The notes under the pieces are model-generated. The model did no database searches, was not told the origin of the DNA, and saw only the letters and a list, made by a program, of their open reading frames with translations. DNA of 64,000 nt from Rhodospirillales bacterium (GTDB lineage: Bacteria > Pseudomonadota > Alphaproteobacteria > Bin95). The stretch is taken from NCBI GenBank assembly GCA_008081395.1, contig VMCJ01000071.1:27420-91419 (forward strand), given 5' to 3'. A program made the translations under genes and the position numbers. Positions 26,085 to 45,313 of this stretch are shown here, piece by piece (position 1 is the first letter of the stretch; every line of letters begins with the position of its first letter).

Positions 26085-26247
26085 GTCGCCACTCTTCTTT
26101 GATTTAAATTAAGGTTGTTTGCCAGCAAAATGAAACGAAGCGTTTTGATGCCAGCACTTAAGAAAGACCAGTCAACCAATAGAGATTTCTTTACCCGATC
26201 CCATGGTTGCTTCACGCTATTTGCTCAGGAAACGATGACTTGTCAAC

Positions 26248-26697
26248 CTAAAATGGTTTTACAACAACCATTATTACAATAATTATCATCGATATTGTGG
26301 GCACTTCGTTGGCTACTCTGAAGTATCGTTGGCTTTTCCGGTTCGTCCCTTCCGCTAGATCCTTGCGCCATTTGCCCATGGCATGATGGCACCCTGTTAA
26401 AACCAAAATCGCCAGAATTTTCAGCCAAATCCAGCCAGAGCTCCAATCAACAATGCCAGGTGTGAGTATCAACAAAATTCCAAATATGTACGAAACTACC
26501 ATCGCGGGATTCATTATAGCGCGCAGGAGTCGGCGCTCCATAACTTGGAATCTATGATCTTCTATCGAATTTAATTCGACTTCTACGTGATACACAAAGA
26601 GCCGAGGAAGATAGAGAAGTCCAGCCATCCAAGACATCACCGCAATAATATGAATTGCTTTGAACCATGGATAACTTCCTATGAGGAATTCACTCAT
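26248..26697 (-). CDS. hemJ: Protoporphyrinogen IX oxidase, HemJ family
   Basis: HemJ signature N-terminus WFKAIHIIAVMSWMAGLLYLPRLFVYH; 4-bp overlap with hemE. Confidence 0.8.
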   Translation of the reverse strand: MSEFLIGSYPWFKAIHIIAVMSWMAGLLYLPRLFVYHVEVELNSIEDHRFQVMERRLLRAIMNPAMVVSYIFGILLILTPGIVDWSSGWIWLKILAILVLTGCHHAMGKWRKDLAEGTNRKSQRYFRVANEVPTISMIIIVIMVVVKPF

Positions 26698-27731
26698 GCG
26701 CTATCCCTAATTCTTTTAATAAGAGCTTCTACATTAGCTATTGGTGTCTCGGGTGTAATTCCATGACCTAAGTTGAAAATAAACGGTGAGTTTCTGTTGG
26801 AGTTAAGAATGTTATCAATCTCTTTAATAAGGAAATCACCCCCACAAATTAATGTAACTGGATCTAGATTACCTTGTGGTATCGCCCCAGCTTTACGAAC
26901 ATGGTCAAACGCTTCTGTAGGTAAAGATTGACCCAATGACACAGCATCAACTGCTGGCAAAGCCGCAAAATCACTAACAAATGCATCCGCCCCTCGCGGA
27001 AATGCTATCACTTTAGCACCTGGATGAGCTGCTTTGACAATTTGTGCTATTCGACCAATAGGTTCCAAACTCCATGCTTTCACACCATAAGCCGGCAATG
27101 CGCCAGCCCAACTATCAAATATCTGCACAACTTCGGCCCCAGCTTCGATTTGGTTGATCAGATGTTTGGATATTGCTGACTCCAATAAATTTAGGAGTTT
27201 TGACCATGCGCTTGGCTTTTCTAAAGCAAACTTTCTCGCTTTGGCGTAATCGCGACTACCCGCACCCTCAATCATATAAGCTGCAAGCGTCCAAGGAGCT
27301 CCTGCAAATCCAATAAGCGCGGTTTCCTTTGGAAGCTTATTTCTGGTTTGTGTCACAGCGGAATAAACTGGTTTGAGAAATTCTGTTACCTGTCCAAGAT
27401 CCAAATTGTTCACGTCATCCGATGTATTTAAGGCATTTAATTTTGGACCAAAGCCTGGTTCAAACCATACTTTTTGCCCAAGTGCATGAGGTAAAACCAA
27501 AATATCAGAAAAAATTATTGCAGCATCAAATCCAAAACGGCTTATCGGCTGCAAAGTTGCTTCAGTCGCCATATCAGGCGTGTAACAAAATGTTAGAAAA
27601 TCTTTCGCTTGTGTTCGAAGCTTGCGATATTCGGGTAGATAACGACCTGCCTGACGCATTAGCCACACAGGGGGTCTTGGCGCTGCTTTGCCACTAAGAA
27701 CAGAAGATAAGAGATTTTGAGTTTTCATCAT
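26694..27731 (-). CDS. hemE: Uroporphyrinogen decarboxylase
   Basis: URO-D N-terminal motif PVWLMRQAGRYLPEY; 345 aa. Confidence 0.9.
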   Translation of the reverse strand: MMKTQNLLSSVLSGKAAPRPPVWLMRQAGRYLPEYRKLRTQAKDFLTFCYTPDMATEATLQPISRFGFDAAIIFSDILVLPHALGQKVWFEPGFGPKLNALNTSDDVNNLDLGQVTEFLKPVYSAVTQTRNKLPKETALIGFAGAPWTLAAYMIEGAGSRDYAKARKFALEKPSAWSKLLNLLESAISKHLINQIEAGAEVVQIFDSWAGALPAYGVKAWSLEPIGRIAQIVKAAHPGAKVIAFPRGADAFVSDFAALPAVDAVSLGQSLPTEAFDHVRKAGAIPQGNLDPVTLICGGDFLIKEIDNILNSNRNSPFIFNLGHGITPETPIANVEALIKRIRDSA

Positions 27732-27999
27732 GGTGACAAGGAATATCTTCTTATTCTGTTAAATAACACTACTAAACAAAACTTAATTTAATATTGATTG
27801 TTGTAGTTAGAGTGACTGATATCGGGGATAAAAACTCTAAGCAAAAAATTGCTAACAGGATAAAAAAAAACCTCCATTCGTTGATTTACAATAGACAGGG
27901 CAATCGACTCGTTAAATTTATTAAAGACCTGAAGGAAGTATCCTGTGGAAGTATCAGGGATAGGTTTTTTTCCCCTCAATTATCAATTTGGATTTCCAC

Positions 28000-28008
28000 T
28001 GTGGATAT
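28000..28008 (-). promoter_or_regulatory. DnaA-box candidate (revcomp ATATCCACA, 8/9 to TTATCCACA)
   Basis: TGTGGATAT on the plus strand, inside a CCACTGTGG palindrome. Confidence 0.5.
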
Positions 28009-28040
28009 CACGACTGAAGGAAATATCTGTTATGAGGGGA

Positions 28041-28049
28041 GTATCCACA
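28041..28049 (+). promoter_or_regulatory. DnaA-box candidate (GTATCCACA, 8/9)
   Basis: Inverted relative to the box at 28000-28008, 32 bp apart; weaker boxes at 28069-28077 (TCATCCACC) and 28081-28089 (TTATCCTCT). Confidence 0.5.
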
Positions 28050-28194
28050 ATGAGAAAAAAGATACATTTCATCCACCTGTTTATCCTCTACTAGTCCACC
28101 ATTTCTTCCATATATGTGCATCGCTTTGAGGGAGATTTTTTTTACGTTTTAGTCATTAAGATTCGTTTTGACGTTTGTTGTAGGTGGAATATTT

Positions 28195-28317
28195 TCAAGA
28201 TATTTTTTATCTTTTTAACTATTGTTACGATGTATAAAAATGTACTCATAAATAAATGAAGTAAAAATAAATAAAATATAAATAATAAATATATATATAT
28301 GTAGGAAGGTAAATATA
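28195..28317. other. Candidate DNA-unwinding element (almost pure A/T run) abutting the maf start
   Basis: taaaaatgtactcataaataaatgaagtaaaaataaataaaatataaataataaatatatatatat; a near-exclusive A/T stretch. Confidence 0.4.
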
Positions 28318-28923
28318 TTGAAGACACTAAAGCCAATTATATTAGCATCTGCGAGCCAATCACGACGGTCTCTTCTATCTGCATCTGGTGTTGAATTTGA
28401 TGTGGTTGTCTCGAATGTCGACGAAGACGAGATTAAAAACATAGCCAAGCAAGATGGTTGGACTGTTTCAAAAACGGCTTTGGCTTTAGCTGCTGCAAAA
28501 GCTGAAGCTGTTCAAACTATGCATCCCGAGGCAATTATCATTGGTGCTGATCAGATGTTAGAACTTGAAGGTAATTGGTTTGACAAACCTTCTTCTGTGG
28601 AAGTTGCAAAAAAACAGCTTGAAGCTCTTCGTGGTAAGACCCATCGACTTCTTTCAGGCCTAGTTTTGCTTGCACCGGAAAAAGAACGCTGGACCCATAT
28701 TGAGTCAGCAGATCTAACAATGAGAAATTTTTCGGATACTTTTTTAGATAGTTATATCCAAACTCTTGGGGAAGAAGCCTGCAAATCTGTAGGTGGCTAT
28801 TTTCTTGAAGGTCTAGGGGTACAAATGTTTGATCAAGTGAGGGGAGACTATTTCACTATATTAGGTCTCCCTATGGCACCTCTTCTTAATGCACTTCGAT
28901 TAGAGGGGGCATTATTATTATGA
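28318..28923 (+). CDS. maf: Maf-family nucleoside triphosphate pyrophosphatase
   Basis: Maf N-terminus ILASASQSRRSLL; TTG start with AGGAAGG RBS. Confidence 0.85.
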   Translation: MKTLKPIILASASQSRRSLLSASGVEFDVVVSNVDEDEIKNIAKQDGWTVSKTALALAAAKAEAVQTMHPEAIIIGADQMLELEGNWFDKPSSVEVAKKQLEALRGKTHRLLSGLVLLAPEKERWTHIESADLTMRNFSDTFLDSYIQTLGEEACKSVGGYFLEGLGVQMFDQVRGDYFTILGLPMAPLLNALRLEGALLL

Positions 28924-29765
28924 AAATGTCAGGTAACGCTGTCGTTGCTGGGATCATCGGTTGGCCTATTAGTCACTCACGGTCACCCCTGATCCATGGC
29001 CATTGGATTGAAAAGCATAAAATAGACGGGACTTATGTTCCGTTGGCTGTTCATCCAGATGCAGCGGCGGATGCTATTCGATCTCTTCCAAAGCTTGGAA
29101 TAGCAGGGATAAATGTAACCGTTCCTCACAAGCTAACAGCGTTTGACGTTGTTGATGAACGTGATGCCGCGTCTCAAGCAATTGGTGCGATTAATACAAT
29201 TGTAGTTTCACCAGAAGGCTCATTACTTGGTTCGAATACAGATGCTCCAGGGTTTTTTGCGCACCTCCGAGCGACTGTACCCGAGTGGGATCCACAGGCT
29301 GGGCCGGTGGTGGTTTTAGGGGCAGGTGGATCAGCTCGCGCGGCAATTCATTCATTGCTGGAAGCTGGTGTTAAAGAAATAAGATTAGTAAATCGAACTA
29401 AATCCAAGGCGGAGATTATTGCCAGTAATTTTGGAGATAAAATCAAAGTTATAAGTTGGTCAGAACGGGCGTCTTCATTGGCAGAAAGTAATCTACTTGT
29501 GAACACAACAAGCCTTGGAATGAAGGGCGCTCATCCTTTAGAAATTCACCTAGACGATTTGCCAAAAGAAGCAGTTGTTTACGATATCGTTTATGTTCCT
29601 TTAGAGACAAATTTACTTGCAGCAGCGAAACATCGTGGCAACAAAGTCGTAGATGGCCTGGGAATGCTGCTGCATCAAGCTGTTCCCGGATTTCATGCTT
29701 GGTTTGGTACAAAACCTGCTGTTGACTCAGAACTTCGGCAATTGATTTTGGATGATCTTAAATGA
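28920..29765 (+). CDS. aroE: Shikimate dehydrogenase
   Basis: VIGWPISHSRSPLIH motif; 4-bp overlap with maf. Confidence 0.85.
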   Translation: MKMSGNAVVAGIIGWPISHSRSPLIHGHWIEKHKIDGTYVPLAVHPDAAADAIRSLPKLGIAGINVTVPHKLTAFDVVDERDAASQAIGAINTIVVSPEGSLLGSNTDAPGFFAHLRATVPEWDPQAGPVVVLGAGGSARAAIHSLLEAGVKEIRLVNRTKSKAEIIASNFGDKIKVISWSERASSLAESNLLVNTTSLGMKGAHPLEIHLDDLPKEAVVYDIVYVPLETNLLAAAKHRGNKVVDGLGMLLHQAVPGFHAWFGTKPAVDSELRQLILDDLK

Positions 29766-30382
29766 TCCGTGGGCGTTTTGTTATTGGACTTACCGGATCT
29801 ATTGGCATGGGTAAGAGCTTCGCGGCTTCGTGCCTACGCAAAGAAGGCGTTCCTGTGTTTGATGCAGACGCGGAAGTTCATTTGTTGATGGCAAAAGGCG
29901 GCCGTGCTGTCAGAGCTGTTGAAGCAGCATTTCCAGGTGTTGCTGTTAATGGGTCAATTGACAGGACGAAACTGGGACCTTTGGTTTTTGGAAACCAAGA
30001 AGCATTATCAAAGTTAGAAAGAATACTGCATCCGATGGTTGGCGAGGAAGAACGCAGTTTTATAGCTCGTGCCGCTCGCTCCGGCCACAAGGTTGTGGCA
30101 CGTGATGTCCCACTACTTTTTGAAACTGGTGGCGATAAGCGCTGTGACATTACACTTGTGGTATCCGCACCTGCACATATCCAGCGTGCGCGTGTGTTGG
30201 CTCGTCCTGGAATGACAGAAGAAAGGCTCAGTCAGGTCCTTGCTAAGCAATTGCCTGATGCTGAAAAACGCAGGCAAGCAGATATAATTATACCATCAGG
30301 GCTTGGAAAAAGGCTAACTCGAGACAGAATTAGACAAGCGCTGCGTGGTATTCGTCAGAAAGGCAAAGACTATGGGCGGTAA
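29762..30382 (+). CDS. coaE: Dephospho-CoA kinase
   Basis: P-loop GLTGSIGMGKS; 4-bp overlap with aroE. Confidence 0.85.
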   Translation: MIRGRFVIGLTGSIGMGKSFAASCLRKEGVPVFDADAEVHLLMAKGGRAVRAVEAAFPGVAVNGSIDRTKLGPLVFGNQEALSKLERILHPMVGEEERSFIARAARSGHKVVARDVPLLFETGGDKRCDITLVVSAPAHIQRARVLARPGMTEERLSQVLAKQLPDAEKRRQADIIIPSGLGKRLTRDRIRQALRGIRQKGKDYGR

Positions 30383-34976: not shown

Positions 34977-36002
34977 TTAGCTTGGATTTCCCACGGGAAG
35001 CCAAAGAACATCCTCAATGTGCTGTGCTCCAGTTGCTAGCATAACAGCCCTGTCAAAACCCATTGCAACCCCGGAACCTGATGGAAGGCCGTGAGCAACT
35101 GCATTGAGAAAATCTTCATCAATTTTGCGTGATCCACCGGTCGCGGTTATGGCGTTGAGGTCTGCATTAAACCTCCGCTTATATTCTTCGGGATCGGTAA
35201 GTTCACCAAAACCATTCGCAAGCTCTACACCGTCAGCAAAAACTTCAAAGCGTTCCGCGGCTAGAGGAAATAATGGATCTATCTGCGCAAGGGCTGCCAT
35301 TCGAGCCGGGTAGTGGTGCAAAACTAAAGGTTTATTTGTTCCAAGGTGTGGCTCTATTCGGTTTAAGAGACAACGAAAAAAAATGTCGTCCCAGTTATCT
35401 TTTTCGTCAGTTTTTATCCCTGCCGTGTTAGCGGCACTGCGCAAAGCTTCCTCGTCGTTCTGAAGGGGCAGTGGATCGAAACCGAGTTTTTGCTGAAAGG
35501 CGCCTGAGACAGTTAACCAATCCGCTGCCGCCTGGGGATCAAATTTGCCAGATTGAAGTAACGGGAAAGCAGCTTTGGCTGCGACTTTAAGGAGGCGGAG
35601 AGTATCAATAGCCCCTTGTTTCCAACTACTGCCGGGACGATACCATTCCAACATCGTGAATTCGGGATGGTGGGTCGCCGAGCGTTCGCCGTTTCGATAA
35701 ACCCGTGCGATTTGGAAAATGGGACCGGCACCGGCAGCTAGCAGTTTTTTCATCGCAAATTCTGGGCTTGTATGAAGCCCCATCACTTGAGAGCTGCCAT
35801 CAGGCTCAACAAGAGTGGTTTCGAAGGGATTTAAGTTCGGTTCCATACCAGGCGATATTTGAAGAGCAGGCGTCTCTACCTCAGAAAAACCTTGCTCATC
35901 AAACCACTGTCGCATGGCCTTCAAAATGCGATTACGGGCCATAAGATAGGGGCGACGCCGCTCGAATTTATCGGGTCGCCAGGCGGGTGCGCTTCCTGTC
36001 AT
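34977..36002 (-). CDS. epmA: EF-P--(R)-beta-lysine ligase (truncated LysRS paralogue, GenX/PoxA)
   Basis: Class II aaRS catalytic core without an anticodon-binding domain; 341 aa; adjacent to epmB and efp. Confidence 0.8.
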   Translation of the reverse strand: MTGSAPAWRPDKFERRRPYLMARNRILKAMRQWFDEQGFSEVETPALQISPGMEPNLNPFETTLVEPDGSSQVMGLHTSPEFAMKKLLAAGAGPIFQIARVYRNGERSATHHPEFTMLEWYRPGSSWKQGAIDTLRLLKVAAKAAFPLLQSGKFDPQAAADWLTVSGAFQQKLGFDPLPLQNDEEALRSAANTAGIKTDEKDNWDDIFFRCLLNRIEPHLGTNKPLVLHHYPARMAALAQIDPLFPLAAERFEVFADGVELANGFGELTDPEEYKRRFNADLNAITATGGSRKIDEDFLNAVAHGLPSGSGVAMGFDRAVMLATGAQHIEDVLWLPVGNPS

Positions 36003-37090
36003 CGCTAGATCCCCTTATAGAAAGCGGTATGAACGCTAAACCTGCTCTTATTTCTGCTCAAGCACTGGTTGGTGCTGGGCTTATAGATGCCGAAGCCGCT
36101 AAGCAAGCTGAGTCAGTCGGCCGCCACTACGCAATTCGGGTCACACCAGCAATGGCAGCACTGATTGATTCTTATGGTGAACCAATCAAGAAGCAATTTC
36201 TGCCGGACATTAGTGAACTCACACAAATGCCGGAAGAGTTGTCTGATCCCATTGGCGATGATGCACACAGTCCAACCCCAGGGCTTGTACATCGATACCC
36301 TGACCGTGTTTTACTTAAACCAATAAGTGTTTGCCCCGTATACTGTCGATATTGCTTTAGAAGAGAGACAGTCGGTTCTGCTCCAGCTATGAAACCGACA
36401 GAGATCTCTGATGCTGTGGCTTACATCGCCAACCACCCAGAGATCTGGGAGGTTGTTTTGACTGGTGGCGATCCACTCATGCTGAAGCCGCCGAGCCTTG
36501 CAAGGATCATCAAGCAGCTGGAGGTGATTTCCCATGTTAAGATCCTGCGCATCCATACGCGCGTTCCAATTGCAGACCCTGACAGAGTTTCACCTGAATT
36601 GGTGGCGGCAGTTAAGGGGACAGGAAGGCTCTCGTCTTATGTCGCTATTCATTGCAACCATGCCAGTGAACTTACTGAAGCAGCAGTAAAAGCTGCTGCA
36701 CTTTTTGCTGATGCAGGTATTCCTTTGTTAGGACAGTCTGTGCTGTTGGCGGGCGTAAATGCTGAGATTGGTCCTCTAGAAGATTTGATGCGAGCGTTGG
36801 TTGCCTCTCGTATTCGGCCTTATTATCTGCATCATTTGGATTTAGCGCCTGGGACAGCTCGGTTTCGTGTTGATATTTCGGTTGGGCAGGAACTGATGAA
36901 AGCGCTTCGCGGAAGAGTGTCGGGTCTTTGTCAGCCAACGTACGTTTTGGATGTGCCAGGGGGATATGGAAAATCACCTCTCACGCCCAGCTATGTGCAG
37001 GCGTCTGAAAAAGGAAATTGGGTCATTAGTGACCCCTTTGGGCAAGAACACCGATACCCACCGCCGGTTGCGGGTTTAGTCGACGACTGA
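35987..37090 (+). CDS. epmB: EF-P beta-lysylation protein EpmB (lysine 2,3-aminomutase family, radical SAM)
   Basis: CPVYCRYCFRR radical-SAM cluster motif; the true start is probably the Met at 36029 (MNAKPALIS), which removes the 16-bp divergent overlap with epmA. Confidence 0.8.
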   Translation: MRFLSSLDPLIESGMNAKPALISAQALVGAGLIDAEAAKQAESVGRHYAIRVTPAMAALIDSYGEPIKKQFLPDISELTQMPEELSDPIGDDAHSPTPGLVHRYPDRVLLKPISVCPVYCRYCFRRETVGSAPAMKPTEISDAVAYIANHPEIWEVVLTGGDPLMLKPPSLARIIKQLEVISHVKILRIHTRVPIADPDRVSPELVAAVKGTGRLSSYVAIHCNHASELTEAAVKAAALFADAGIPLLGQSVLLAGVNAEIGPLEDLMRALVASRIRPYYLHHLDLAPGTARFRVDISVGQELMKALRGRVSGLCQPTYVLDVPGGYGKSPLTPSYVQASEKGNWVISDPFGQEHRYPPPVAGLVDD

Positions 37091-37136
37091 TAGAAGCACC
37101 TCGATTTAGTTTCGAAACGGATATAACGGGGCCATT

Positions 37137-37703
37137 ATGAAGGTCATCGCAAACACACTGCGTGCTGGCCACGCAATTGAGCATGATAGTCGCCATTACA
37201 TGGTGATAAAACACGAGCTGATTTTACCCGGCAAGGGGAATGCTTTTATTGCGCTTGATATGCGCGATGTGATGACGGGAACCAAAACTAATGTTCGTTT
37301 TCGAACAGGCGATACAGTAGAGCGATTGCATACTGATGAGCGTGAAGTTCAATTCCTCTATCGCGAGGGGGAATTGTTTACTTTCATGGACAATGAAACA
37401 TACGATCAGTTCACCATGGATGGTGAGACCGTCGGTGAAAAAGCAGATTTTTTGCAGGATGGCATGGCTATTCGAATCAACACAGTGGATGGAACTCCAA
37501 TTGGGGTTACCCTCCCAACAACAGTTGTCCTAGAGGTAGTTGAAGCTGATCCAGTGGTGAAAGGCCAAACGGCAAGCGCTTCTTACAAGCCAGCTATGCT
37601 AGAAAACGGTATGCGTATCTCAGTGCCTCCTCATATTGTTACTGGCACACGCATTGTTGTTCATACAGAAAACCGTGAATATGTAGAGCGGGCAAAAGAC
37701 TAG
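37137..37703 (+). CDS. efp: Elongation factor P
   Basis: 188 aa; conserved loop LPGKGNAF, where the Lys corresponds to E. coli K34, the beta-lysylation site. Confidence 0.95.
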   Translation: MKVIANTLRAGHAIEHDSRHYMVIKHELILPGKGNAFIALDMRDVMTGTKTNVRFRTGDTVERLHTDEREVQFLYREGELFTFMDNETYDQFTMDGETVGEKADFLQDGMAIRINTVDGTPIGVTLPTTVVLEVVEADPVVKGQTASASYKPAMLENGMRISVPPHIVTGTRIVVHTENREYVERAKD

Positions 37704-37725
37704 TCTCGCCCATAGAGAGATAAAA

Positions 37726-38514
37726 ATGCGCCGCACACCCGTAATGACCATGATGATTCGTGCGGCTGAGAAGGCTGGACGTGCGGTTGTTCGTGACTTT
37801 GGAGAGGTTGAACATCTCCAGGCATCGAATAAAGGCCCCCGCGATTTTGTCGAAAAGGCAGACGAAAAAGCTTCTCGTATTTTACAAGAAGAGCTTGAAA
37901 AAGCCCGCCCTCGCTTTGGCCTCCTAATGGATGGTTTGGATGAGATAATCGGAGCAGATACCTCTCACCGCTTTATTGCTGACCCCATAGATGGCGCTAC
38001 CAATTTCATGCATGGTTTGCCTCAATTCGCAGTTTCTGTGGCTTTGGAAGAAAGTCGTGAGGTCATAGCTGGGGTCGTTTATAACCCGGTTACAGATGAA
38101 CTTTTTTGGGCTGAGCGTAATGAGGGCGCTTACCTTCATGACCGCCGCATCCGCGTTTCGAGGAGAACGCACCTTTCTGAAGCATTAGTTGCGGGAGCAC
38201 CCTTTCTTCATGATTCTCATAACCCAGATCAATGGTCTGGGATTTTCAATCGGCTAGCCCAAAGTTGTACAATACGAATCGTGGGCGCAGCTTCTATTAG
38301 TTTGGTGCAGGTAGCAGCGGGAAAACTTGATGGTTACGTAGATGCTGGCCTCAAGCCCTGGGAATTCGCTGCGGGTTCAATCATTCTGCAAGAAGCAGGT
38401 GGCATTATTACTGATTTGAACGGTGGGGCTGGATGGCTAAAATCTGGCGAATTGGTTGCAGCCTCGGGAGAACTTCACGGGCAGATTTTATCGACGTCGA
38501 TTAGACAAGCCTAA
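37726..38514 (+). CDS. suhB: Inositol monophosphatase family protein (SuhB-like)
   Basis: IMPase motifs DPIDGT and WDFAAG-like (WEFAAGS). Confidence 0.8.
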   Translation: MRRTPVMTMMIRAAEKAGRAVVRDFGEVEHLQASNKGPRDFVEKADEKASRILQEELEKARPRFGLLMDGLDEIIGADTSHRFIADPIDGATNFMHGLPQFAVSVALEESREVIAGVVYNPVTDELFWAERNEGAYLHDRRIRVSRRTHLSEALVAGAPFLHDSHNPDQWSGIFNRLAQSCTIRIVGAASISLVQVAAGKLDGYVDAGLKPWEFAAGSIILQEAGGIITDLNGGAGWLKSGELVAASGELHGQILSTSIRQA

Positions 38515-38592
38515 CCATCCTCAGTTGAGGTTAGCCTAGAGCTTCGCTAAGATCCTTCAGCGTAGAACCTGCTTTCAGCAATTGAACTGGAA

Positions 38593-39357
38593 ATGATGAG
38601 TTCAAAACATCATTGCACGGGCCCATTGAATACCCGCTTTAGGCAGCTTTGCGGGATGATTTTATTGTTATCTCTGCTTCCATGTGGCTACCTCCAGTCA
38701 TCAGCGCTTGCGAGTGAGCGTCAGTTAGCCCCAGCCCTCAACTTGAAAGAAGCAAAATCTCTCTCGCATAACAACGAGAGGCTCCACAATGATTTGCCCC
38801 CTTTCCCACCGCGCCGCCCAGACTTTTCGAACAAACACAATTCGTCTTTGAGCCAAAAGACGGTTGTTATAGTTCCGTTGCCCCCTGTAAGGCAGGCGCC
38901 ATTTTCTTCTAAGACACGCTCAAAAGACGAGGCGCCAAGCACAGAGTTCCCTGTTGCTGATCTATCGACGCTAGATTCTACCGATAAAAATACCCCCATT
39001 AGCAAAGAGGATGTCTCTACAAATCCCTTACAAAAATTAGCTGCCGTACCGGAAAGATTTGAAGCAGAAATACTTTTTGCCAAAGGTATTAATTTACTCC
39101 ACGGAGGTGATGAGCAACTTCTTGTTCAGGTCGTTAAGCGCAGCACAGGAGCGTCCAATTTTACTATCCATTTATTTGGCGGATCCAGCATCAGTGAAAA
39201 AGCTTCTGCCCGTCAGGAAGCTCTCTCAAGGGCGATCGCAGTTTATCAATATTTAGTTAGTAGTGGGGTCCCGAGTTCATCAATTGCAGTCAAACCTGTT
39301 TCAAATGATGATAGTCGGGATACGGTAGTTATTTATTTGGAGGCATCCAAAACATGA
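38593..39357 (+). CDS. Secreted Pro-rich hypothetical protein with a degenerate OmpA-like C-terminal region
   Basis: N-terminal signal-like segment (ILLLSLLPCGYLQSSALA), Pro-rich linker, C-terminus ALSRAIAVYQYLVSSGVPSSSIAV reminiscent of OmpA-domain helices; 4-bp overlap with the next gene. Confidence 0.5.
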   Translation: MMSSKHHCTGPLNTRFRQLCGMILLLSLLPCGYLQSSALASERQLAPALNLKEAKSLSHNNERLHNDLPPFPPRRPDFSNKHNSSLSQKTVVIVPLPPVRQAPFSSKTRSKDEAPSTEFPVADLSTLDSTDKNTPISKEDVSTNPLQKLAAVPERFEAEILFAKGINLLHGGDEQLLVQVVKRSTGASNFTIHLFGGSSISEKASARQEALSRAIAVYQYLVSSGVPSSSIAVKPVSNDDSRDTVVIYLEASKT

Positions 39358-40532
39358 GCTCCAACCTGACACGTCCAGGAAGATTCCTTCTACGAATGGC
39401 GCTTTTCATGGCTGCGGCAATTGCGGCAGGGGCGGTTACTTGGCGGCCTGCTTTTGCAGCTTTTATGGCAAACCCAGCATTAAATGGGGTGATCGTTGGC
39501 GTATTTGTTGTCGGTGCCATCGTGTGCGTGAGACAGGCTTATAGTCTGAAAAATGAGGTGGAGTGGATTGAGCGGTTTCAAAGGCGTGGCACTCGGGAGC
39601 CACAAGGTCCTGGACCTCGTCTTTTAGCGCCAATTGCCGGCGCCCTAACGCAAGTTGAGGACAAGGTTAGCCTTCATGCAACATCTGCTCGTGCGCTGCT
39701 TGATGGTTTGGGAAGCAGGCTAGATGAAGCACGTGAATTAGCACGTTATTTGGTTGGGCTTTTAATTTTCCTGGGCCTTTTGGGCACTTTTTGGGGGCTT
39801 TTAGAAACAGTCAGGTCTGTTTCACAAGTAGTCGATGGATTAGACGTAGGAGGAGATGCCGCAACAACCTTTGAAAGTTTGCGAGGGGGGCTTCGCGCGC
39901 CTTTGGACGGCATGGGCACAGCCTTTAGCTCCTCTCTCTTTGGTCTTGCGGGGGCTCTTGCTCTGGGATTTTTGGACCTTCAGGCAGGTCAGGCCCAGAA
40001 CCGGTTTTATAACGAGGTCGAGGATTGGCTTTCTTCGATTGCTACTTTTCAAAGTTTGCCAGCGTTATCGAGTCAGGCGGCCATCGGGCCGTCGCAGCCC
40101 TCTGCATATGTTGAGGCCTTGTTGGGGCAGACAGCAGAGATGCTGGACGACTTGCGTCGGCTTGTAGGTCGGTCGGAAGAAAAGCGCCGTGAGACAGACT
40201 TGGTGCTCACAGCCATGGGTGACCGGCTTCATAGTTTGGCTGATGGCCTTGAAACCCTGGGTCGTATTTCGGAACAGCAACAGCGTGCACTTGGTTTGTT
40301 GGCAGAGCGAGAAGATTCATCAGCTTTAGCGTTACAGACAATGACGGAACGTCTTGCGAATCCTGTAATCGACGCTGAAACTCGTCGTCAGCTGGCTCAA
40401 ATTGAGAGATTATTAGCCCGGCTAGGTGGAGCGGTCACAGCAGGCCAGTCAGAATTGACACAGGAATTGCGCAATGAACTGCGCCTTCTGGGCCGCACGT
40501 TAATCGGTCATACGGACGGCAGGACCGATTGA
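39354..40532 (+). CDS. MotA/TolQ/ExbB-family proton-channel protein with an extended (~180 aa) C-terminal cytoplasmic tail
   Basis: Four predicted TMs; TolQ/ExbB signature LGLLGTFWGLLETV; second signature helix GTAFSSSLFGLAGALALGFL. Confidence 0.75.
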   Translation: MSSNLTRPGRFLLRMALFMAAAIAAGAVTWRPAFAAFMANPALNGVIVGVFVVGAIVCVRQAYSLKNEVEWIERFQRRGTREPQGPGPRLLAPIAGALTQVEDKVSLHATSARALLDGLGSRLDEARELARYLVGLLIFLGLLGTFWGLLETVRSVSQVVDGLDVGGDAATTFESLRGGLRAPLDGMGTAFSSSLFGLAGALALGFLDLQAGQAQNRFYNEVEDWLSSIATFQSLPALSSQAAIGPSQPSAYVEALLGQTAEMLDDLRRLVGRSEEKRRETDLVLTAMGDRLHSLADGLETLGRISEQQQRALGLLAEREDSSALALQTMTERLANPVIDAETRRQLAQIERLLARLGGAVTAGQSELTQELRNELRLLGRTLIGHTDGRTD

Positions 40533-42082
40533 TGCGCTCCCGCCGCGGACGCGTTGTGCGCCAGGACCTTTGGCCAGGGTTTGTTGATGCTTTAGCCAGT
40601 TTGCTGATGGTGGTGATTTTTCTTCTGTCAGTCTTTGCGATAGCCCAGCATTTTCTTTCTGAGCGTCTTTCGGGCCGAGAACAAGCGCTAGCAGCGGCAG
40701 AGGGTGAAATTGCTGTCCTTATAGAAGAAAGCGCAAATCTCTCAGATGCTCTTGCAGCTGCAACCGCGCGAAGAAACGACCTACAGAGCCAGTTAACAAC
40801 GCTTGAAAAGGAGTCTGAAAATATATCCCAGGCGTTAATCGCAGCACGGGCCGATCTCTCTCGCGAGGGTGCAGAAAAGGTTGCGGTAGAGCAGCAGTTG
40901 AAGCTTCTTTTGGACAAAGTACAAACACTTGAGAAATCTTTGTTAGACGCTCAAGAGATAAATAACCAGGCGATAGCAAAAGCTGAATTACAAGCTTCGG
41001 AAATTGCGAGGCTCACTGCAACACTGGAAGCGTTGCAGTCCGAAGCTAATGAAGCAAAAGCCGCCTATCGTATTACGACAGAACGGGCTGAGCTGACGCT
41101 GTCGAGGGCTATTGAGCGAGCCGCTCGAGCTGAGGCTGCTCGCGATGCCCTCGCCAAGAGGGCCAGCGAACTCGAGGAGGCACTTCGTACAGCAGCGGCA
41201 GCTCTAGAGGCCGCTACGTCCGCTAAAGGTGATGCAGAAGCTAATGCAGCGGCACTCGTAGATCGTTTAAAGGAGCAGGAAACAGCCAGTAGTGCCGCGG
41301 TGCTTGAATATCGCAATCGAATTGTAAGCCTGGAAGCTAAAATAGCTGATATGTCATCCCGTGTAGAAGCGTTGCAAAACGCAGCTGCGGCTGCAGAGTT
41401 GGGACTTGCCGGCGCCAGGCGAGACGCCCAAGGTTTAGAAGCAGCGAAGAGGAATGCGGAGGCTGAACAAAGGGCTCTGGCAAGTCTTAATGCCGAGCTT
41501 CAATTTAAAATAGATGCGCTCAATGCTGCTCTTACTGAAGCATTGGATCAAGCCAAGACCCAAGGGTCCACAATATTGCAGCTCGAGGGCAAACTTAATG
41601 CTGCGCTTGCAGCAAAAGTTAGTGAGTTACGGCGCTTTCGTTCTGAATTTTTTGGAAAAGTCAGTGAGGTTGTTAAAGACAGATCAGATATAAGGGTCGA
41701 AGGCGACCGTTTCGTTCTTCAGTCAGAAGTGTTGTTTGAAACGGCCCAAGCCGACCTAGGCCCCGAAGGCGTTAAGCGAATAGAAACCCTGGCATCTGCC
41801 CTGAAGGAAATTATTTCAACAATTCCTCCAGAGGTCGAATGGGTTCTTCGCATTGATGGGCATACTGACATTCGCCCAATTTCAACAGAGCAGTTTGCGT
41901 CTAATCGAGATCTTTCATTAGAGCGCGCGCAATCTGTGTCAAAAGTCTTGGCTGCTGCAGGCATCCCACAGGAACGGCTTTTGCCGGCTGGTTTTGGTGA
42001 ATACCGGCCGATCGATAAAGGGAAAACCCTAGAAGCCTATAGGCGGAATAGGCGTATTGAGATAAGACTCGACCAACCTTAG
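40529..42082 (+). CDS. MotB/TolR-like membrane anchor: long coiled-coil spacer plus C-terminal OmpA-like peptidoglycan-binding domain
   Basis: N-terminal TM with conserved Asp (WPGFVDALASLLMVVIFLL); ~350 aa Ala/Glu/Arg/Leu-rich heptad-like region; C-terminal GHTD...NRRIEIRL OmpA_C motif; 4-bp overlap with the upstream gene. Confidence 0.75.
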   Translation: MMRSRRGRVVRQDLWPGFVDALASLLMVVIFLLSVFAIAQHFLSERLSGREQALAAAEGEIAVLIEESANLSDALAAATARRNDLQSQLTTLEKESENISQALIAARADLSREGAEKVAVEQQLKLLLDKVQTLEKSLLDAQEINNQAIAKAELQASEIARLTATLEALQSEANEAKAAYRITTERAELTLSRAIERAARAEAARDALAKRASELEEALRTAAAALEAATSAKGDAEANAAALVDRLKEQETASSAAVLEYRNRIVSLEAKIADMSSRVEALQNAAAAAELGLAGARRDAQGLEAAKRNAEAEQRALASLNAELQFKIDALNAALTEALDQAKTQGSTILQLEGKLNAALAAKVSELRRFRSEFFGKVSEVVKDRSDIRVEGDRFVLQSEVLFETAQADLGPEGVKRIETLASALKEIISTIPPEVEWVLRIDGHTDIRPISTEQFASNRDLSLERAQSVSKVLAAAGIPQERLLPAGFGEYRPIDKGKTLEAYRRNRRIEIRLDQP

Positions 42083-42093
42083 GAGTAGCATCT

Positions 42094-42852
42094 ATGAAAA
42101 CAGGCCTTACTGGAAAGCGCGCTATCGTTACCGGAGGTAGCCGGGGTATAGGCTACGCCATTGCTGATGCTCTAGCCGCTGAAGGTATGGCGGTTTCAAT
42201 CTGCGCCCGTGGTCAACAAGGATTGGACGCTGCCTCCAAAAATTTAAGCCGGCATGGTGGAAATGTTCATAGCCTTGCAGCGGACGTGGCCTCGAAGGAG
42301 GGCATTGAAGGCTATATGGATGCAGCTATCACCGCCCTGGGTGGTGTTGACGTTTTAGTTAACAACACATCTGCGTTCGGTGGGTCAGAGGATGAGGCGG
42401 GTTGGGACTCAAGCCTAAATGTTGATGTGATGGCACTCGTCAGAGCTTCTTGGAAAGCAAGGGCCTCAATGGCAGAAACTGGTGGGGGCTCAATTATAAA
42501 TATTAGCTCTATAACTGGCCTAGCTACAGCTGGACGCACCCCCCCATATGGCGCGGCTAAAGCTGCTGTTATCCAATATACCAAAACTCAGGCATATCAT
42601 TACGCGTCAGATAATATCCGAGTTAACTGCATCGCCCCAGGATCGATCTATTTCGAAGGTGGCGTATGGGGTAAGGCTGAAGTCGAACGACCAGAGCTTT
42701 TCGAAAAAATCAGATCATCGATCCCTTTTGGCCGCCTTGGTGCGCCGGAAGAAGTAGCTAATTTGGCAGTGTTTCTTGCTTCAGATGCCGCTAGCTGGGT
42801 AACTGGCCAGACCATCGCCGCTGATGGTGGACAGACGCTTAACCCAATTTAG
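42094..42852 (+). CDS. Short-chain dehydrogenase/reductase (SDR)
   Basis: TGGSRGIGYA cofactor motif and YGAAK catalytic motif. Confidence 0.8.
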   Translation: MKTGLTGKRAIVTGGSRGIGYAIADALAAEGMAVSICARGQQGLDAASKNLSRHGGNVHSLAADVASKEGIEGYMDAAITALGGVDVLVNNTSAFGGSEDEAGWDSSLNVDVMALVRASWKARASMAETGGGSIINISSITGLATAGRTPPYGAAKAAVIQYTKTQAYHYASDNIRVNCIAPGSIYFEGGVWGKAEVERPELFEKIRSSIPFGRLGAPEEVANLAVFLASDAASWVTGQTIAADGGQTLNPI

Positions 42853-42855
42853 TTA

Positions 42856-43467
42856 TTAAGCTGAAGCGCTTGGCCGACCCTGCATGCGTTCAAACCAAGA
42901 AGCAACATTGGCGTTCTGTGCATTGATAGGCTGGCCTACATTAGTACCAAAGTCCATGAAGCAGAACAAAAGAATATCTGCCAGACATAGGTTGTCACCA
43001 GAAATAAATTTCTGACCGGCCATTAGGTTATCCAGCCAGGTGATTTTGTCCTGCGCTATAGCCTTTAAACCTGGAGAGGCCTCCGGTAGGCAACGCATAC
43101 GGCCTTCGAACATTTTTAGGCCTTCGCCAAAACGAAAGCCATTAGCTAATGGCTCACAGATATTTAAATCGACACGCCTCGTCCACATCCTTGTTACGGC
43201 TCTCTCTTCCGCCGTTTTTCCAATAAGGACTGGAGTTGGGTGTAGTTCCTCGATGTATTCACAAATTGCTGTGATCTCAGAAATGTAGGATCCATCGTCA
43301 AGCTCTAAGCACGGCGCCTGGCCTGCTGGGTTCTTACTCAAAAATTCTGCCTGTCTGTTTACGGCTTTTCGGATATCAATTTCTTCCAATGGAAGCTCAA
43401 CGCCCTTTTCAGCCAAAAACATCCGAACAACGCGAGGGTTAGGTCCTACAGAATTATAAAGCTTCAT
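42856..43467 (-). CDS. Glutathione S-transferase family protein
   Basis: GST N-terminal thioredoxin-like fold starting MKLYNSVGPNPRVVRMFLAEKG; start taken at the internal Met (43467) rather than the ORF-track start at 43548. Confidence 0.75.
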   Translation of the reverse strand: MKLYNSVGPNPRVVRMFLAEKGVELPLEEIDIRKAVNRQAEFLSKNPAGQAPCLELDDGSYISEITAICEYIEELHPTPVLIGKTAEERAVTRMWTRRVDLNICEPLANGFRFGEGLKMFEGRMRCLPEASPGLKAIAQDKITWLDNLMAGQKFISGDNLCLADILLFCFMDFGTNVGQPINAQNANVASWFERMQGRPSASA

Positions 43468-43823: not shown

Positions 43824-44561
43824 TTATTGAGCGAACAACCTGGCTGCGGGTCGCTTTATCAAACCAATTAGCAAAGCGCCGGATAAAAAGCCGCCCACGT
43901 GGGCTATATACGCTACGTTCTCCGCCCCCATTAAACCTCCACTGGCTAAGGTCTGGAACATGAACCAGCTGCCAATAACAGCCCATGCCTTAAGGCGTAT
44001 GGGAATAAAAAAAGGCAGTAGCACAGTTATTTTAGATTTAGGCGTAAGGAGAATGTACGCCCCTAAAACCCCTGATACAGCCCCCGATGCACCTATCAAA
44101 GGGGCTTCTGATGCTACCTCAGCGTAGCCCTGAGCCAACGCTGCAACAGCTCCGGTAATGACAAAAAATATTGCAAACCGCCAATGTCCGCAGGCATCTT
44201 CCACGTTGTCGCCAAAGATGTAGAGAAACAACATGTTTCCAATCAGATGCCAAGCGTCGCCATGCAGAAAGACCGAAGTCACAACAGAGAAGTCGGCTGG
44301 CATCACTGCAAGGCTCTCGGCGAGTTCACGATACCCAAAAACGACAGCTGGAATGAAACCATAGCTAAACAAAACTTTTGCCTCATCTTCAGGCGAAAGG
44401 CCCGTTTGCCAGATATAGATAATCGTGCAAAACAGAATTATTCCCCAAGTCACATAGGGTGTAGATACCCACCGGCGAGGATTGTCGTCATGAAGGGGGA
44501 GGAAAGGCAAATCAGTTTCTAGAGTCGTGGCGCGGGTGATGTATCTGAAATTTCGCACCAA
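43824..44561 (-). CDS. Rhomboid-family intramembrane serine protease
   Basis: GASGAVSG catalytic Ser motif and AHVGGFLSG catalytic His motif in TM helices. Confidence 0.8.
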   Translation of the reverse strand: MVRNFRYITRATTLETDLPFLPLHDDNPRRWVSTPYVTWGIILFCTIIYIWQTGLSPEDEAKVLFSYGFIPAVVFGYRELAESLAVMPADFSVVTSVFLHGDAWHLIGNMLFLYIFGDNVEDACGHWRFAIFFVITGAVAALAQGYAEVASEAPLIGASGAVSGVLGAYILLTPKSKITVLLPFFIPIRLKAWAVIGSWFMFQTLASGGLMGAENVAYIAHVGGFLSGALLIGLIKRPAARLFAQ

Positions 44562-45313
44562 ATCGGTGTGTGATCTGACGCTTTAGGTTGTCCGCGAGGG
44601 CGCCGATCAATGTCTACATCGCTCAAGCGGTCGAGTGCTGTTGCAGACAGAAGGATATGGTCAATCCGAATGCCATGGTCTTTCTGCCATGCCCCCCCCT
44701 GATAATCCCAGAATGTGAATGCTGAAGGAGCTCTTGGCCTTACAGAGCGATACGCGTCGTAGAAACCAAGCCAACACAATGCTCTGAATTTTGCGCGGGT
44801 TTCTGCTTGGAAAAGCGCATCATTCCGCCAAGCTGATGGATTGTAGCAATCTTCTGGTTCTGGAATGACATTAAAATCACCCATAAGTGCGGTGGGCATG
44901 CCGTTCTCCAGAAGGATTTTTGCCCGAGCTTGTAAACGGTCCATCCAGCTCATTTTATAGTTGAATTTTTCTGTGCCTATTGGATTCCCATTTGGCAAAT
45001 ATATCGATGCCACCCGAACACCTTCAACGGTCGCTTCCACATACCGCGCTTGTTCATCGGATGGGTCACCGTCTAGACCAATAACCGGATCTTTGAATGG
45101 GTGACGAGATAATAGGGCAACACCGTTGTAACTTTTCTGTCCAGCCACAAGGGTGTGGTAACCGCGAGACTTGAACTCCAGTTCAGGGAATGAATCACCA
45201 ACGCATTTAATTTCCTGCAGGGCGAGCACATCTGGAGCGGCTTCATCTATCCAAGCCAATACTGCGTCCAGCCTAGCTTTAATTGAATTTACATTCCAAG
45301 TTGCGAGACGCAT
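44519..45313 (-). CDS. xthA: Exodeoxyribonuclease III
   Basis: ExoIII/APE motifs MRLATWNVNSI, LQEIK and SDHTPI; the 43-bp overlap with the rhomboid N-terminus suggests one of the two starts is misplaced. Confidence 0.9.
   Translation of the reverse strand: MRLATWNVNSIKARLDAVLAWIDEAAPDVLALQEIKCVGDSFPELEFKSRGYHTLVAGQKSYNGVALLSRHPFKDPVIGLDGDPSDEQARYVEATVEGVRVASIYLPNGNPIGTEKFNYKMSWMDRLQARAKILLENGMPTALMGDFNVIPEPEDCYNPSAWRNDALFQAETRAKFRALCWLGFYDAYRSVRPRAPSAFTFWDYQGGAWQKDHGIRIDHILLSATALDRLSDVDIDRRPRGQPKASDHTPIWCEISDTSPAPRL

What the first reader, a model, noticed from the sequence alone, without database searches (positions are those of the whole stretch)
38593..42082. Stator-like three-gene cluster: secreted OmpA-like protein, MotA/TolQ-type channel with a cytoplasmic tail, and MotB-like anchor with a ~350-aa coiled coil
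Three translationally coupled genes (4-bp overlaps) sit in a housekeeping neighbourhood. The first is a signal-peptide, Pro-rich protein with a degenerate OmpA-like C-terminus. The second is a 4-TM MotA/TolQ/ExbB-family protein (GLLGTFWG signature) with an unusual ~180-aa C-terminal cytoplasmic extension. The third is a MotB/TolR-type protein that keeps the TM Asp (FVDALASLL). It then has ~350 residues of Ala/Glu/Arg-rich predicted coiled coil, far longer than a periplasmic linker needs, before a canonical OmpA peptidoglycan-binding domain. This architecture is not flagellar, Tol-Pal or ExbBD/TonB: no TolA/TonB/Pal partner and no flagellar genes are present. It resembles the ion-driven stator modules repurposed in Zorya defence or gliding motors, but it lacks ZorC/ZorD and the long tail is on the B-type subunit. 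Its function is unknown and could be envelope-spanning mechanical signalling or defence.
Basis: partly seen in the sequence, partly recalled or inferred. Interest (0 to 1): 0.65.

Follow-up and report, generated by a model that had tools for sequence, protein, structure and literature searches.

The report
Uncharacterised wall-anchored ion motor operon
This is a real three-gene operon for a cell-wall-anchored, ion-driven membrane motor related to flagellar stators, Tol/Ton and Zorya; it is inherited vertically in many Alphaproteobacteria next to housekeeping genes, and I found no paper that says what it does.

Summary
Three translationally coupled genes sit at 38593-42082: a secreted Pro-rich protein with a degenerate OmpA-like end (ORF1), a 4-TM MotA/ExbB/TolQ/ZorA-superfamily protein with a 180-aa helical cytoplasmic tail (A), and a MotB-like protein (B). 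B has a transmembrane Asp, about 340 aa of proline-free heptad-periodic helix and a canonical MotB/PomB-type peptidoglycan-binding domain.

The ion-pathway residues are conserved: B Asp20 in 119 of 120 homologues, and A Thr145 and Thr189 are invariant. B passes the curated NCBIfam cut-off for PRK09039 "peptidoglycan-binding protein", a family with no assigned function.

The A-B pair is adjacent in all 78 loci, out of 80 fetched genomes, that extend past A. It usually lies in the synteny efp - inositol monophosphatase - (ORF1) - A - B, and this extends to Sinorhizobium. No Zorya effector gene (ZorC/D/E) lies beside it in the window. It is absent from viral contigs and true plasmids. That points to a core housekeeping module, not a defence island.

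It fails the membership tests for Zorya, flagellar MotAB, Tol-Pal and ExbBD-TonB. The long B coil is lineage-specific: B ranges from 322 to 776 aa.

The best reading is a wall-anchored B stator with a rotating A pentamer whose output is the cytoplasmic tail. The physiological role is unknown.

The parts
38593..39357 (+). ORF1: secreted accessory protein (254 aa; alternative start Met22 at 38656). It has a signal peptide, a Pro-rich linker and a degenerate OmpA-like C-terminal domain.
   Evidence: It clusters by BLAST with the gene immediately upstream of A in 44 other loci. 28 of 29 aligned members hit Pfam OmpA.
39028..39342 (+). ORF1 OmpA-like domain (about residues 146-250). It lacks the GHTD Asp but keeps the LSRA Arg.
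   Evidence: PF00691 E = 2.4e-4, residues 179-234; alignment.
39354..40532 (+). A subunit: 4-TM MotA/ExbB/TolQ/ZorA-superfamily protein, 392 aa.
   Evidence: PADLOC ZorA1 1.2e-13. Pfam MotA_ExbB 0.025. Foldseek top hits are ExbB, ZorA, TolQ and MotA. At least 8000 full-length homologues.
39774..39797 (+). A TM3 motif GLLGTFWG (141-148). It is invariant, and Thr145 aligns with TolQ Thr145.
39909..39977 (+). A TM4 (186-208), GMGTAFSSSLFGLAG..., with invariant Thr189 and Ser194; Ser192 is nearly invariant (at least 90%).
39978..40529 (+). A cytoplasmic tail (209-392): a linker followed by a heptad-periodic helical hairpin, ending in the conserved motif ELRxExRLLxRT.
40529..42082 (+). B subunit: MotB-like protein, 517 aa from TTG 40529 or 516 aa from ATG 40532.
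   Evidence: (NF006543, 319.4 bits against a cut-off of 305).
40586..40588 (+). Codon for B Asp20, the conserved TM aspartate in WPGFVDALA.
   Evidence: 119 of 120 homologues; invariant.
40658..41683 (+). B periplasmic coiled-coil stalk (44-385). Model helices run 19-198, 205-342 and 349-382. Residues 93-319 form the variable spacer.
41690..42070 (+). B peptidoglycan-binding OmpA-like domain (388-514), of MotB/PomB type.
   Evidence: Pfam OmpA 3.4e-12. PDB phmmer MotS 2.8e-15. Foldseek MotS 9ljl, TM 0.81, rmsd 2.1 A.

Best explanation
A vertically inherited, housekeeping three-gene operon encodes a peptidoglycan-anchored, ion-driven motor of the 5:2 (A5B2) superfamily.

Shown or directly supported:
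- A has the MotA/ExbB/TolQ/ZorA channel fold and the invariant TM Thr/Ser residues.
- B has the universal TM Asp and a canonical MotB/PomB-type wall-binding domain at the end of a long two-stranded-type helical stalk.
- The genes are translationally coupled and co-inherited across alphaproteobacterial orders.

Inferred mechanism:
- A B dimer is fixed to the cell wall and acts as the stator axle.
- Proton flow through Asp20 turns the A pentamer around it, as in MotAB and ZorAB.
- The output is the conserved 180-aa cytoplasmic helical tail of A, which acts on a still unknown cytoplasmic or membrane partner.
- The variable-length B stalk is a tether or gate. It sets when the wall-binding domain can engage, so that changes in envelope geometry or integrity would switch the motor on.
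- ORF1 is a dispensable periplasmic accessory that modulates wall engagement.

The likely role is envelope surveillance or homeostasis, not motility or phage defence.
For: Motor identity:
- PADLOC ZorA profiles score 1e-13 to 1e-9 and ZorB profiles 3e-17.
- Foldseek with the A model returns ExbB, ZorA, TolQ and MotA as its top 35 hits.
- hhalign matches the A TM3 motif to TolQ YIGLFGTVWG, with Thr145 on Thr145.
- B Asp20 is kept in 119 of 120 homologues.
- ZorA Thr147/Ser184 and ZorB Asp26 are the functional equivalents described in PMC11946911.

Wall anchor:
- Pfam OmpA scores 3.4e-12 with GHTD, RA and NRRIE intact.
- The best solved relatives are MotS, MotB and PomB.

Stator logic (established knowledge, PMC11946911): in the 5:2 motors whose B subunit carries an OmpA-type anchor (MotAB, PomAB, ZorAB), the A subunit rotates and acts in the cytoplasm.

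The tail is under selection:
- Positions Q210, A211, N216, F218, E223, W225, A251, L256, E275, Q310, D340, G364, R373, E375, L379 and R381 are invariant across the 22 sequences.
- A C-terminal motif is shared from Rhodospirillales to Dokdonella.

The stalk is a passive spacer: residues 93-319 vary in length and sequence, while 1-92 and 320-517 are conserved. B lengths range from 322 to 776 aa.

Housekeeping character:
- A and B are adjacent in all 78 loci, of 80 genomes, that extend past A; efp-IMPase synteny is present in most of them and IMPase-A-B in S. meliloti.
- There are 485 cluster representatives at E <= 1e-30.
- There is no viral hit.
- The Agrobacterium orthologue Atu3746 was detected in membranes under all conditions tested (PMC8656257).
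Against: - No complex was modelled, so the stoichiometry is inferred from homology only.
- The A monomer model is poor (pLDDT 59.7), and its Foldseek E-values are only 3e-3 to 1e-2.
- No cytoplasmic partner gene is conserved next to the operon.
- A low-confidence 20-residue linker (232-252) separates TM4 from the tail. Torque transmission along a rigid bundle, as in ZorA, is therefore doubtful.
- The tail is shortened and its end motif lost in S. meliloti.
Confidence: 0.45

Rival explanations
1. Tol/Ton-like periplasmic force generator. The motor's useful output is in the periplasm, not the cytoplasm. B combines the roles of TolR (axle), TolA (long helical stalk) and Pal (wall binding). ORF1, with its mature N-terminal strand motif, Pro-rich rod and Pal-like domain, is the partner that is pulled or released, and the system stabilises or remodels the wall/outer-membrane layer.
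For: - The B stalk is Ala/Glu/Arg-rich, proline-free helix, like TolA domain II.
- The ORF1 family has a conserved V-x-V-D-(L/P)-S-x-L motif right after the AxA-Q signal cleavage site, a 50-300-aa Pro-rich linker and an OmpA-like end. From my own knowledge, this recalls the N-terminal TolA box of TolB and the proline spacer of TonB.
- The cytoplasmic TM2-TM3 loop of A is short (about 65 aa), as in ExbB and TolQ.
- A convergent MsbA-like exporter is a frequent neighbour (17 of 65 loci).
Against: - B carries a canonical, high-affinity-type MotB/PomB anchor, which in known systems marks a stationary stator.
- No TM-anchored TolA/TonB-type transducer with the His motif is present.
- ORF1 is missing in at least 27 of 68 loci, including Rhizobiaceae and Kordiimonas.
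- The conserved cytoplasmic tail of A would be unexplained.
Confidence: 0.25
2. Minimal or orphan Zorya-type anti-phage module (ZorAB only) that senses phage-induced envelope damage.
For: The best profile matches of A and B are the PADLOC ZorA1/ZorA3 and ZorB models. A has a helical C-terminal tail, and B has a wall-binding domain.
Against: - No ZorC/D/E gene is adjacent in the window; the neighbours are IMPase upstream and SDR and GST downstream.
- The NCBIfam ZorA models score only E about 0.03, far below their cut-offs.
- The tail is 180 aa against about 500 aa in ZorA.
- ZorB has no linker between its TM helix and its wall-binding domain (PMC11946911), whereas B has 340 aa.
- The locus is fixed in housekeeping synteny across orders.
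- It is absent from viral contigs and true plasmids.
Confidence: 0.07
3. A flagellar stator paralogue, as public annotations state ('flagellar motor protein MotA', 'chemotaxis protein MotB').
For: - Database names.
- The wall-binding domain of B is closest to MotS, MotB and PomB.
- A has a 4-TM, N-in topology like MotA.
Against: - No NCBIfam MotA/PomA model matches A at E <= 0.1.
- The TM2-TM3 cytoplasmic loop is about 65 aa, too short for the FliG-contacting torque domain.
- There are no flagellar genes nearby in the window or the related loci.
- From my own knowledge, S. meliloti has its flagellar motA and motB in the flagellar regulon, which would make this pair a separate one.
Confidence: 0.05

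Closest known systems
ZorAB core of the Zorya anti-phage system (E. coli ZorA5B2, PMC11946911)
   Same: - The best profile matches are to ZorA and ZorB models.
- The B subunit has a TM Asp and an OmpA-type wall-binding domain.
- The A subunit has a condensed cytoplasmic domain, Thr/Ser residues facing the Asp, and a helical C-terminal cytoplasmic tail.
- The likely logic is the same: a wall-anchored stator and a rotating tail.
   Different: - The tail is about 180 aa rather than about 500 aa, and it is preceded by a flexible linker.
- B has a 340-aa coiled coil where ZorB has no linker.
- A has four hydrophobic segments where ZorA has three TM helices.
- There are no ZorC/D/E effectors beside it.
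- It is core, syntenic and chromosomal rather than in patchy defence islands.
Flagellar stator MotAB / PomAB / MotPS
   Same: - A has a 4-TM, N-in topology.
- B has the W...D TM motif.
- The wall-binding domain of B matches MotS and PomB best (TM 0.81, 30% identity).
- The genes are translationally coupled.
   Different: - A has no FliG-interacting cytoplasmic domain.
- A has a C-terminal tail instead.
- A 340-aa coil replaces the plug and linker.
- The cluster is not in a flagellar gene context.
TolQ-TolR-TolA / Pal (E. coli)
   Same: - The TM3 motif of A aligns with TolQ.
- There is a long alanine-rich periplasmic helix (as in TolA) and an OmpA-like wall-binding module (as in Pal).
- The likely role is in the cell envelope.
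   Different: - The helix and the wall-binding domain are fused to the B (TolR-like) subunit itself.
- There are no TolA, TolB or CpoB genes.
- hhalign found no significant similarity between B and TolR.
NCBIfam PRK09039 'peptidoglycan-binding protein' (NF006542-NF006546)
   Same: B passes the curated cut-off of NF006543 (319.4 against 305 bits). This is the family B belongs to.
   Different: The family name carries no function. The window's B has about 160 extra coiled-coil residues relative to the 350-position model.

Membership tests
5:2 ion-driven motor superfamily (MotAB/ExbBD/TolQR/ZorAB) | The A subunit has the MotA/ExbB/TolQ channel fold and a conserved polar Thr/Ser in each of the two inner TM helices. 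| tested here: met
   PADLOC ZorA 1.2e-13. Foldseek top hits are ExbB, ZorA, TolQ and MotA. hhalign places the TM3 motif on TolQ. Thr145 and Thr189 are invariant. Pfam MotA_ExbB itself scores only E = 0.025, below its cut-off.
5:2 ion-driven motor superfamily (MotAB/ExbBD/TolQR/ZorAB) | The B subunit has a single N-terminal TM helix carrying the universally conserved Asp. | tested here: met
   One TM segment at 13-45. WPGFVD is present in 119 of 120 homologues, and D20 is invariant in alignment A2.
5:2 ion-driven motor superfamily (MotAB/ExbBD/TolQR/ZorAB) | A5B2 stoichiometry and ion-driven rotation. | not testable with these tools
   Only single-chain prediction was available.
Zorya defence system | ZorA-ZorB together with ZorC/ZorD (type I), ZorE (II) or ZorF/ZorG (III) in one locus. 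| tested here: not met
   The neighbours are IMPase upstream and SDR and GST downstream. PADLOC hits are to ZorA and ZorB models only.
Zorya defence system | A long (about 500 aa, 70 nm) ZorA tail, and a ZorB wall-binding domain fused to the TM helix without a linker (PMC11946911). | tested here: not met
   The tail is 184 aa. B has about 340 aa of helix between the TM helix and the domain.
Zorya defence system | Patchy, island-like distribution typical of defence systems. | tested here: not met
   The efp-IMPase-A-B synteny is conserved across orders. There is no viral hit. The only PLSDB hits lie in multi-Mb replicons.
Flagellar stator MotAB/PomAB | A large MotA cytoplasmic TM2-TM3 domain that contacts FliG, and a match to MotA/PomA family models. 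| tested here: not met
   The loop is about 65 aa. No NCBIfam MotA model matches at E <= 0.1.
Flagellar stator MotAB/PomAB | A MotB-type peptidoglycan-binding domain. | tested here: met
   MotS 2.8e-15 by sequence. TM 0.81 and rmsd 2.1 A by fold.
Flagellar stator MotAB/PomAB | Flagellar gene context or regulon. | tested here: not met
   The flanks are housekeeping genes in the window and in the related loci.
Tol-Pal | tolQ-tolR-tolA-tolB-pal(-cpoB) gene set, with TolA TM-docked on TolQ. | tested here: not met
   No such genes are adjacent. B against TolR gives hhalign probability 3%.
ExbBD-TonB | A TonB-type TM-anchored transducer with a proline spacer and a C-terminal TonB domain. | tested here: not met
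   ORF1 has a proline-rich linker, but also an AxA-Q signal-peptidase site and an OmpA-like end, with no TonB_C match.
NCBIfam NF006543 (PRK09039.1-2, peptidoglycan-binding protein) | Whole-protein score above the curated cut-off. | tested here: met
   319.4 bits against a cut-off of 305.
OmpA-like domain (PF00691), for ORF1 | Score above Pfam's gathering threshold, and the wall-binding Asp and Arg retained. | tested here: inconclusive
   The window protein scores 21.8 bits against 27.2, but 28 of 29 family members match. The Asp of GHTD is absent in all aligned members and the Arg of LSRA is kept.

The most novel reading that the evidence does not exclude
This is a new functional class of 5:2 rotary motor. 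It would be a housekeeping, alphaproteobacteria-wide 'endogenous Zorya-like' mechanosensor: a wall-anchored B dimer on a long periplasmic coiled-coil tether gates proton-driven rotation of an A pentamer, and the A tail reports envelope geometry or damage to the cytoplasm. Zorya defence modules could be a derived offshoot of such a system.
Probability: 0.3. Interest if true: 0.75.

Novelty: new variant of a known kind. Interest (0 to 1): 0.55.

Why it matters
Five functional classes of 5:2 ion-driven motors are understood: flagellar rotation, Ton uptake, Tol envelope maintenance, gliding/type IX secretion, and Zorya defence. This operon would add a widespread but unstudied class. It is present in genetically tractable bacteria (Agrobacterium Atu3746, Sinorhizobium meliloti, Azospirillum, Magnetospirillum). 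It combines a Zorya-like cytoplasmic tail with a uniquely long periplasmic stalk. Public annotation as 'flagellar motor protein MotA/MotB' is misleading for thousands of genes. Working out its output would show how Alphaproteobacteria, which lack Braun's lipoprotein, couple membrane energy to the wall or sense envelope state. It would also give an evolutionary reference point for Zorya.

Tried and rejected
- **PDB sequence search with the A profile.** It returned only coiled-coil noise (tropomyosin and similar) against the tail.
- **AlphaFold model of A.** A 22-sequence alignment gave a poor model (pLDDT 59.7). Its Foldseek hits identify the superfamily but not a subfamily.
- **hhalign against E. 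coli proteins.** B against TolR gave nothing useful. A against TolQ aligned only the TM3 motif.
- **Sequence search with ORF1.** It found only homologues of at least 90% identity. The family had to be recovered by gene position in related loci.
- **afdb50 fold library.** It was unavailable, so no UniProt-named structural neighbours were obtained.
- **Literature.** Eight searches and four papers read produced no functional study of this family. The only finding was proteomic detection of Atu3746 in detergent-resistant membranes.
- **Conserved downstream partner.** Only a convergent MsbA-like ABC exporter (17 of 65 loci) and an MFS transporter (13 loci) recur. I judged this to be synteny rather than operon membership.
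- **ORF1 as a TonB/TolA-like TM-anchored transducer.** Rejected because of the AxA-Q cleavage sites and the absence of the His motif.
- **Paralogues in the window.** None found.

Full report
**1. The observation**

The ORF1/A junction is an ATGA overlap preceded by GGAGG. The A/B junction reads gatTGATGcgc. B therefore starts either at TTG (4-bp overlap) or, as the 516-aa database protein implies, at the ATG one codon later (1-bp overlap). Either way the genes are translationally coupled.

The flanking genes are housekeeping:
- upstream: murA, a class-II lysyl-tRNA-synthetase-like (EpmA-type) gene, a lysine-aminomutase-like radical-SAM gene, efp and an inositol monophosphatase;
- downstream: a short-chain dehydrogenase (SDR), GST, a rhomboid protease, an exonuclease III family gene and an Fe-S assembly gene.

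GC content of the cluster (0.49-0.52) is the same as its surroundings.

**2. Protein A**

Hydropathy gives TM segments at 10-30, about 40-62 and 128-153, plus a Gly/Ser/Thr-rich fourth segment at 186-208. The N-terminus is Arg-rich, so the topology is N-in with four TM segments and a short (about 65 aa) cytoplasmic loop.

Evidence for the family assignment:
- Pfam MotA_ExbB matches only weakly (E = 0.025, below its cut-off).
- No NCBIfam MotA, ExbB or TolQ model matches.
- PADLOC ZorA profiles match at 1.2e-13 to 1e-9.
- A profile of 22 homologues found no solved structure by sequence, apart from coiled-coil noise in the tail.
- The AlphaFold model is of low confidence (pLDDT 59.7). Even so, its 35 best Foldseek hits in the PDB are all A subunits of 5:2 motors: ExbB, ZorA 8vvn, TolQ and MotA.
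- hhalign against E. coli TolQ aligns FLGLLGTFWGL with YIGLFGTVWGI, putting Thr145 on TolQ Thr145.

Thr145, Thr189 and Ser194 are invariant, Ser192 is nearly so, and the whole motif 139-150 is invariant.

The tail (209-392) is helical and has strong 3.5-residue periodicity (z = 6.1). It contains invariant residues up to R381. It ends in the motif ELRSE(I/L)(R/K)LLARTIAA, which is shared from Rhodospirillales to Dokdonella but lost in Sinorhizobium.

**3. Protein B**

B has one TM segment (13-45) with WPGFVDALA. The Asp is present in 119 of 120 homologues, and the one exception is N-terminally truncated.

The model (pLDDT 75.8) has helices 19-198, 205-342 and 349-382, followed by a confident alpha/beta domain at 388-514. 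Residues 44-385 are 24% Ala, contain no proline and are heptad-periodic (z = 4.1).

The C-terminal domain is a canonical OmpA-like wall-binding domain (Pfam 3.4e-12, with GHTD, LSxxRA and NRRIE present). Its closest solved relatives are flagellar stator B subunits. MotS scores 2.8e-15 by sequence, and by fold it gives TM 0.81, rmsd 2.1 A and 30% identity.

B passes the curated cut-off of NCBIfam NF006543 (PRK09039.1-2, 'peptidoglycan-binding protein'; 319.4 against 305 bits). That family has no assigned function.

Homologues range from 322 to 776 aa (median 425). Residues 1-92 and 320-517 are conserved, and 93-319 form a variable spacer. The ~340-aa coil is therefore a lineage-specific expansion of a shorter ancestral stalk of about 150-200 aa.

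**4. ORF1**

On its own, ORF1 has only a sub-threshold OmpA match and only homologues of at least 90% identity.

The gene immediately upstream of A in 44 related loci forms one BLAST-linked family that includes ORF1. In an alignment of 29 members, 28 match Pfam OmpA, the best at 4e-15.

The family architecture is:
- a signal peptide with an AxA-Q cleavage site;
- a conserved V-x-V-D-(L/P)-S-x-L motif at the mature N-terminus;
- a 50-300-aa proline-rich linker;
- an OmpA-like domain in which the Asp of GHTD is missing and the Arg of LSRA is kept.

At least 41 of the 68 loci with enough upstream sequence have this gene. It is absent from Kordiimonas and Sinorhizobium, among others. ORF1 is therefore a fast-evolving, dispensable accessory.

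**5. Distribution**

- A has at least 8000 full-length homologues in the 90%-clustered database. Among 1.84 billion 50%-cluster representatives it has 485 hits at E <= 1e-30, 1399 at <= 1e-10 and 2530 at <= 1e-3.
- In all 78 of the 80 best loci that extend past A, A is followed by B. The synteny efp - IMPase - (gap or ORF1) - A - B recurs across Rhodospirillales, Acetobacteraceae, Azospirillum, Thalassospira, Defluviicoccus, Kordiimonas and Hyphomicrobiales.
- The S. meliloti chromosome has IMPase - A (368 aa) - B (342 aa), followed by a convergent MsbA-like exporter. A source name, 'MotB-like protein Atu3746', and the neighbouring Atu3744 (MsbA) point to the same layout in Agrobacterium.
- Xanthomonadales (Dokdonella, Chiayiivirga) carry the pair without this synteny, which suggests lateral transfer.
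- There are no hits in viral contigs. The five PLSDB hits all lie in replicons of 3.5-4.6 Mb.
- No ZorC/D/E-type effector gene is adjacent in the window.

**6. Literature**

Eight full-text searches and four papers read found no functional study of this family.
- The 2025 survey of MotAB relatives (PMC12505986) describes many structurally diverse 'generic ion transporters' of unknown function, but not this architecture.
- The force-transducer survey (PMC12204202) does not mention it either.
- Atu3746 was detected by proteomics in detergent-resistant membranes under all conditions tested (PMC8656257). This shows that it is expressed.

**7. Mechanism**

What is shown: the channel fold of A, the conserved ion-pathway residues, the canonical wall anchor of B, and operon coupling with co-inheritance.

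What is inferred:
- The complex has A5B2 stoichiometry.
- In every known 5:2 motor whose B subunit carries an OmpA-type anchor (MotAB, PomAB, ZorAB; PMC11946911), B is the fixed axle and A rotates and acts in the cytoplasm.
- Applying that logic here, the conserved A tail is the output. The variable B stalk is a tether or gate that controls when the anchor engages the wall.
- I commit to this reading at about 0.45.

The main rival, at about 0.25, is a Tol-like periplasmic force generator. In that reading B fuses TolR-, TolA- and Pal-like roles, and ORF1 is the partner. Defence (0.07) and a flagellar stator role (0.05) are disfavoured by the tests in section 5 and by the membership tests.

**8. 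Comparison and novelty**

The module works like a member of the 5:2 motor superfamily and meets the testable defining features of that superfamily. It fails tested defining features of Zorya, flagellar MotAB, Tol-Pal and ExbBD-TonB.

It belongs to the function-less PRK09039 family and to an unnamed A family. I rate it a new variant of a known kind: a real, widespread, misannotated and uncharacterised branch.

It is interesting to specialists (0.55). It is not categorically new, and its physiological role remains open.

Noticed in passing
window 42080-42852: A short-chain dehydrogenase (SDR) gene starts 11 nt after the B stop codon, and its AGGAG Shine-Dalgarno overlaps that stop. It may be co-transcribed with the cluster in this genome. 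It is not a conserved neighbour in the related loci.
   Followed up: partly
window 34977-37703: efp sits beside an EpmA-like (class II lysyl-tRNA-synthetase-like) gene and an EpmB-like lysine aminomutase gene. This is a complete EF-P lysylation set. The 5' ends of the two divergent genes overlap by 16 nt, so one start codon is probably mis-set.
   Followed up: no
window 26000-30000: GC content drops to about 0.415 against about 0.48 elsewhere. This may be a foreign or otherwise atypical segment.
   Followed up: no
L081 7987-9801; 17 of 65 related loci: A convergent MsbA-like ABC exporter lies immediately downstream of B in Sinorhizobium, in many Rhodospirillales, and in Agrobacterium (Atu3744). 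It could be conserved synteny or a functional link to envelope lipid export.
   Followed up: partly
L064, L066, L071, L075: Xanthomonadales (Dokdonella, Chiayiivirga; Gammaproteobacteria) carry the A-B pair at 42-44% identity, with the A tail end motif but without efp-IMPase synteny. This is probably lateral transfer out of Alphaproteobacteria.
   Followed up: partly
window 40470-40529 (A residues 373-392): The extreme C-terminus of A has the conserved Arg-rich motif ELRxE(I/L)(R/K)LLxRT(I/L). By eye it looks amphipathic, so it could be a partner-binding or membrane-binding helix. It is absent in S. meliloti.
   Followed up: partly
window 43824-45313: The rhomboid protease ORF (43824-44561) and the exonuclease III-like ORF (44519-45313), both on the minus strand, overlap by 43 nt as listed. 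This is likely a start-codon artefact.
   Followed up: no
window 37000-43000: The simple terminator-like scan found 22 sites against 6.5 +/- 2.8 expected from shuffles. None sits convincingly at a gene end within the cluster. The excess is unexplained.
   Followed up: no
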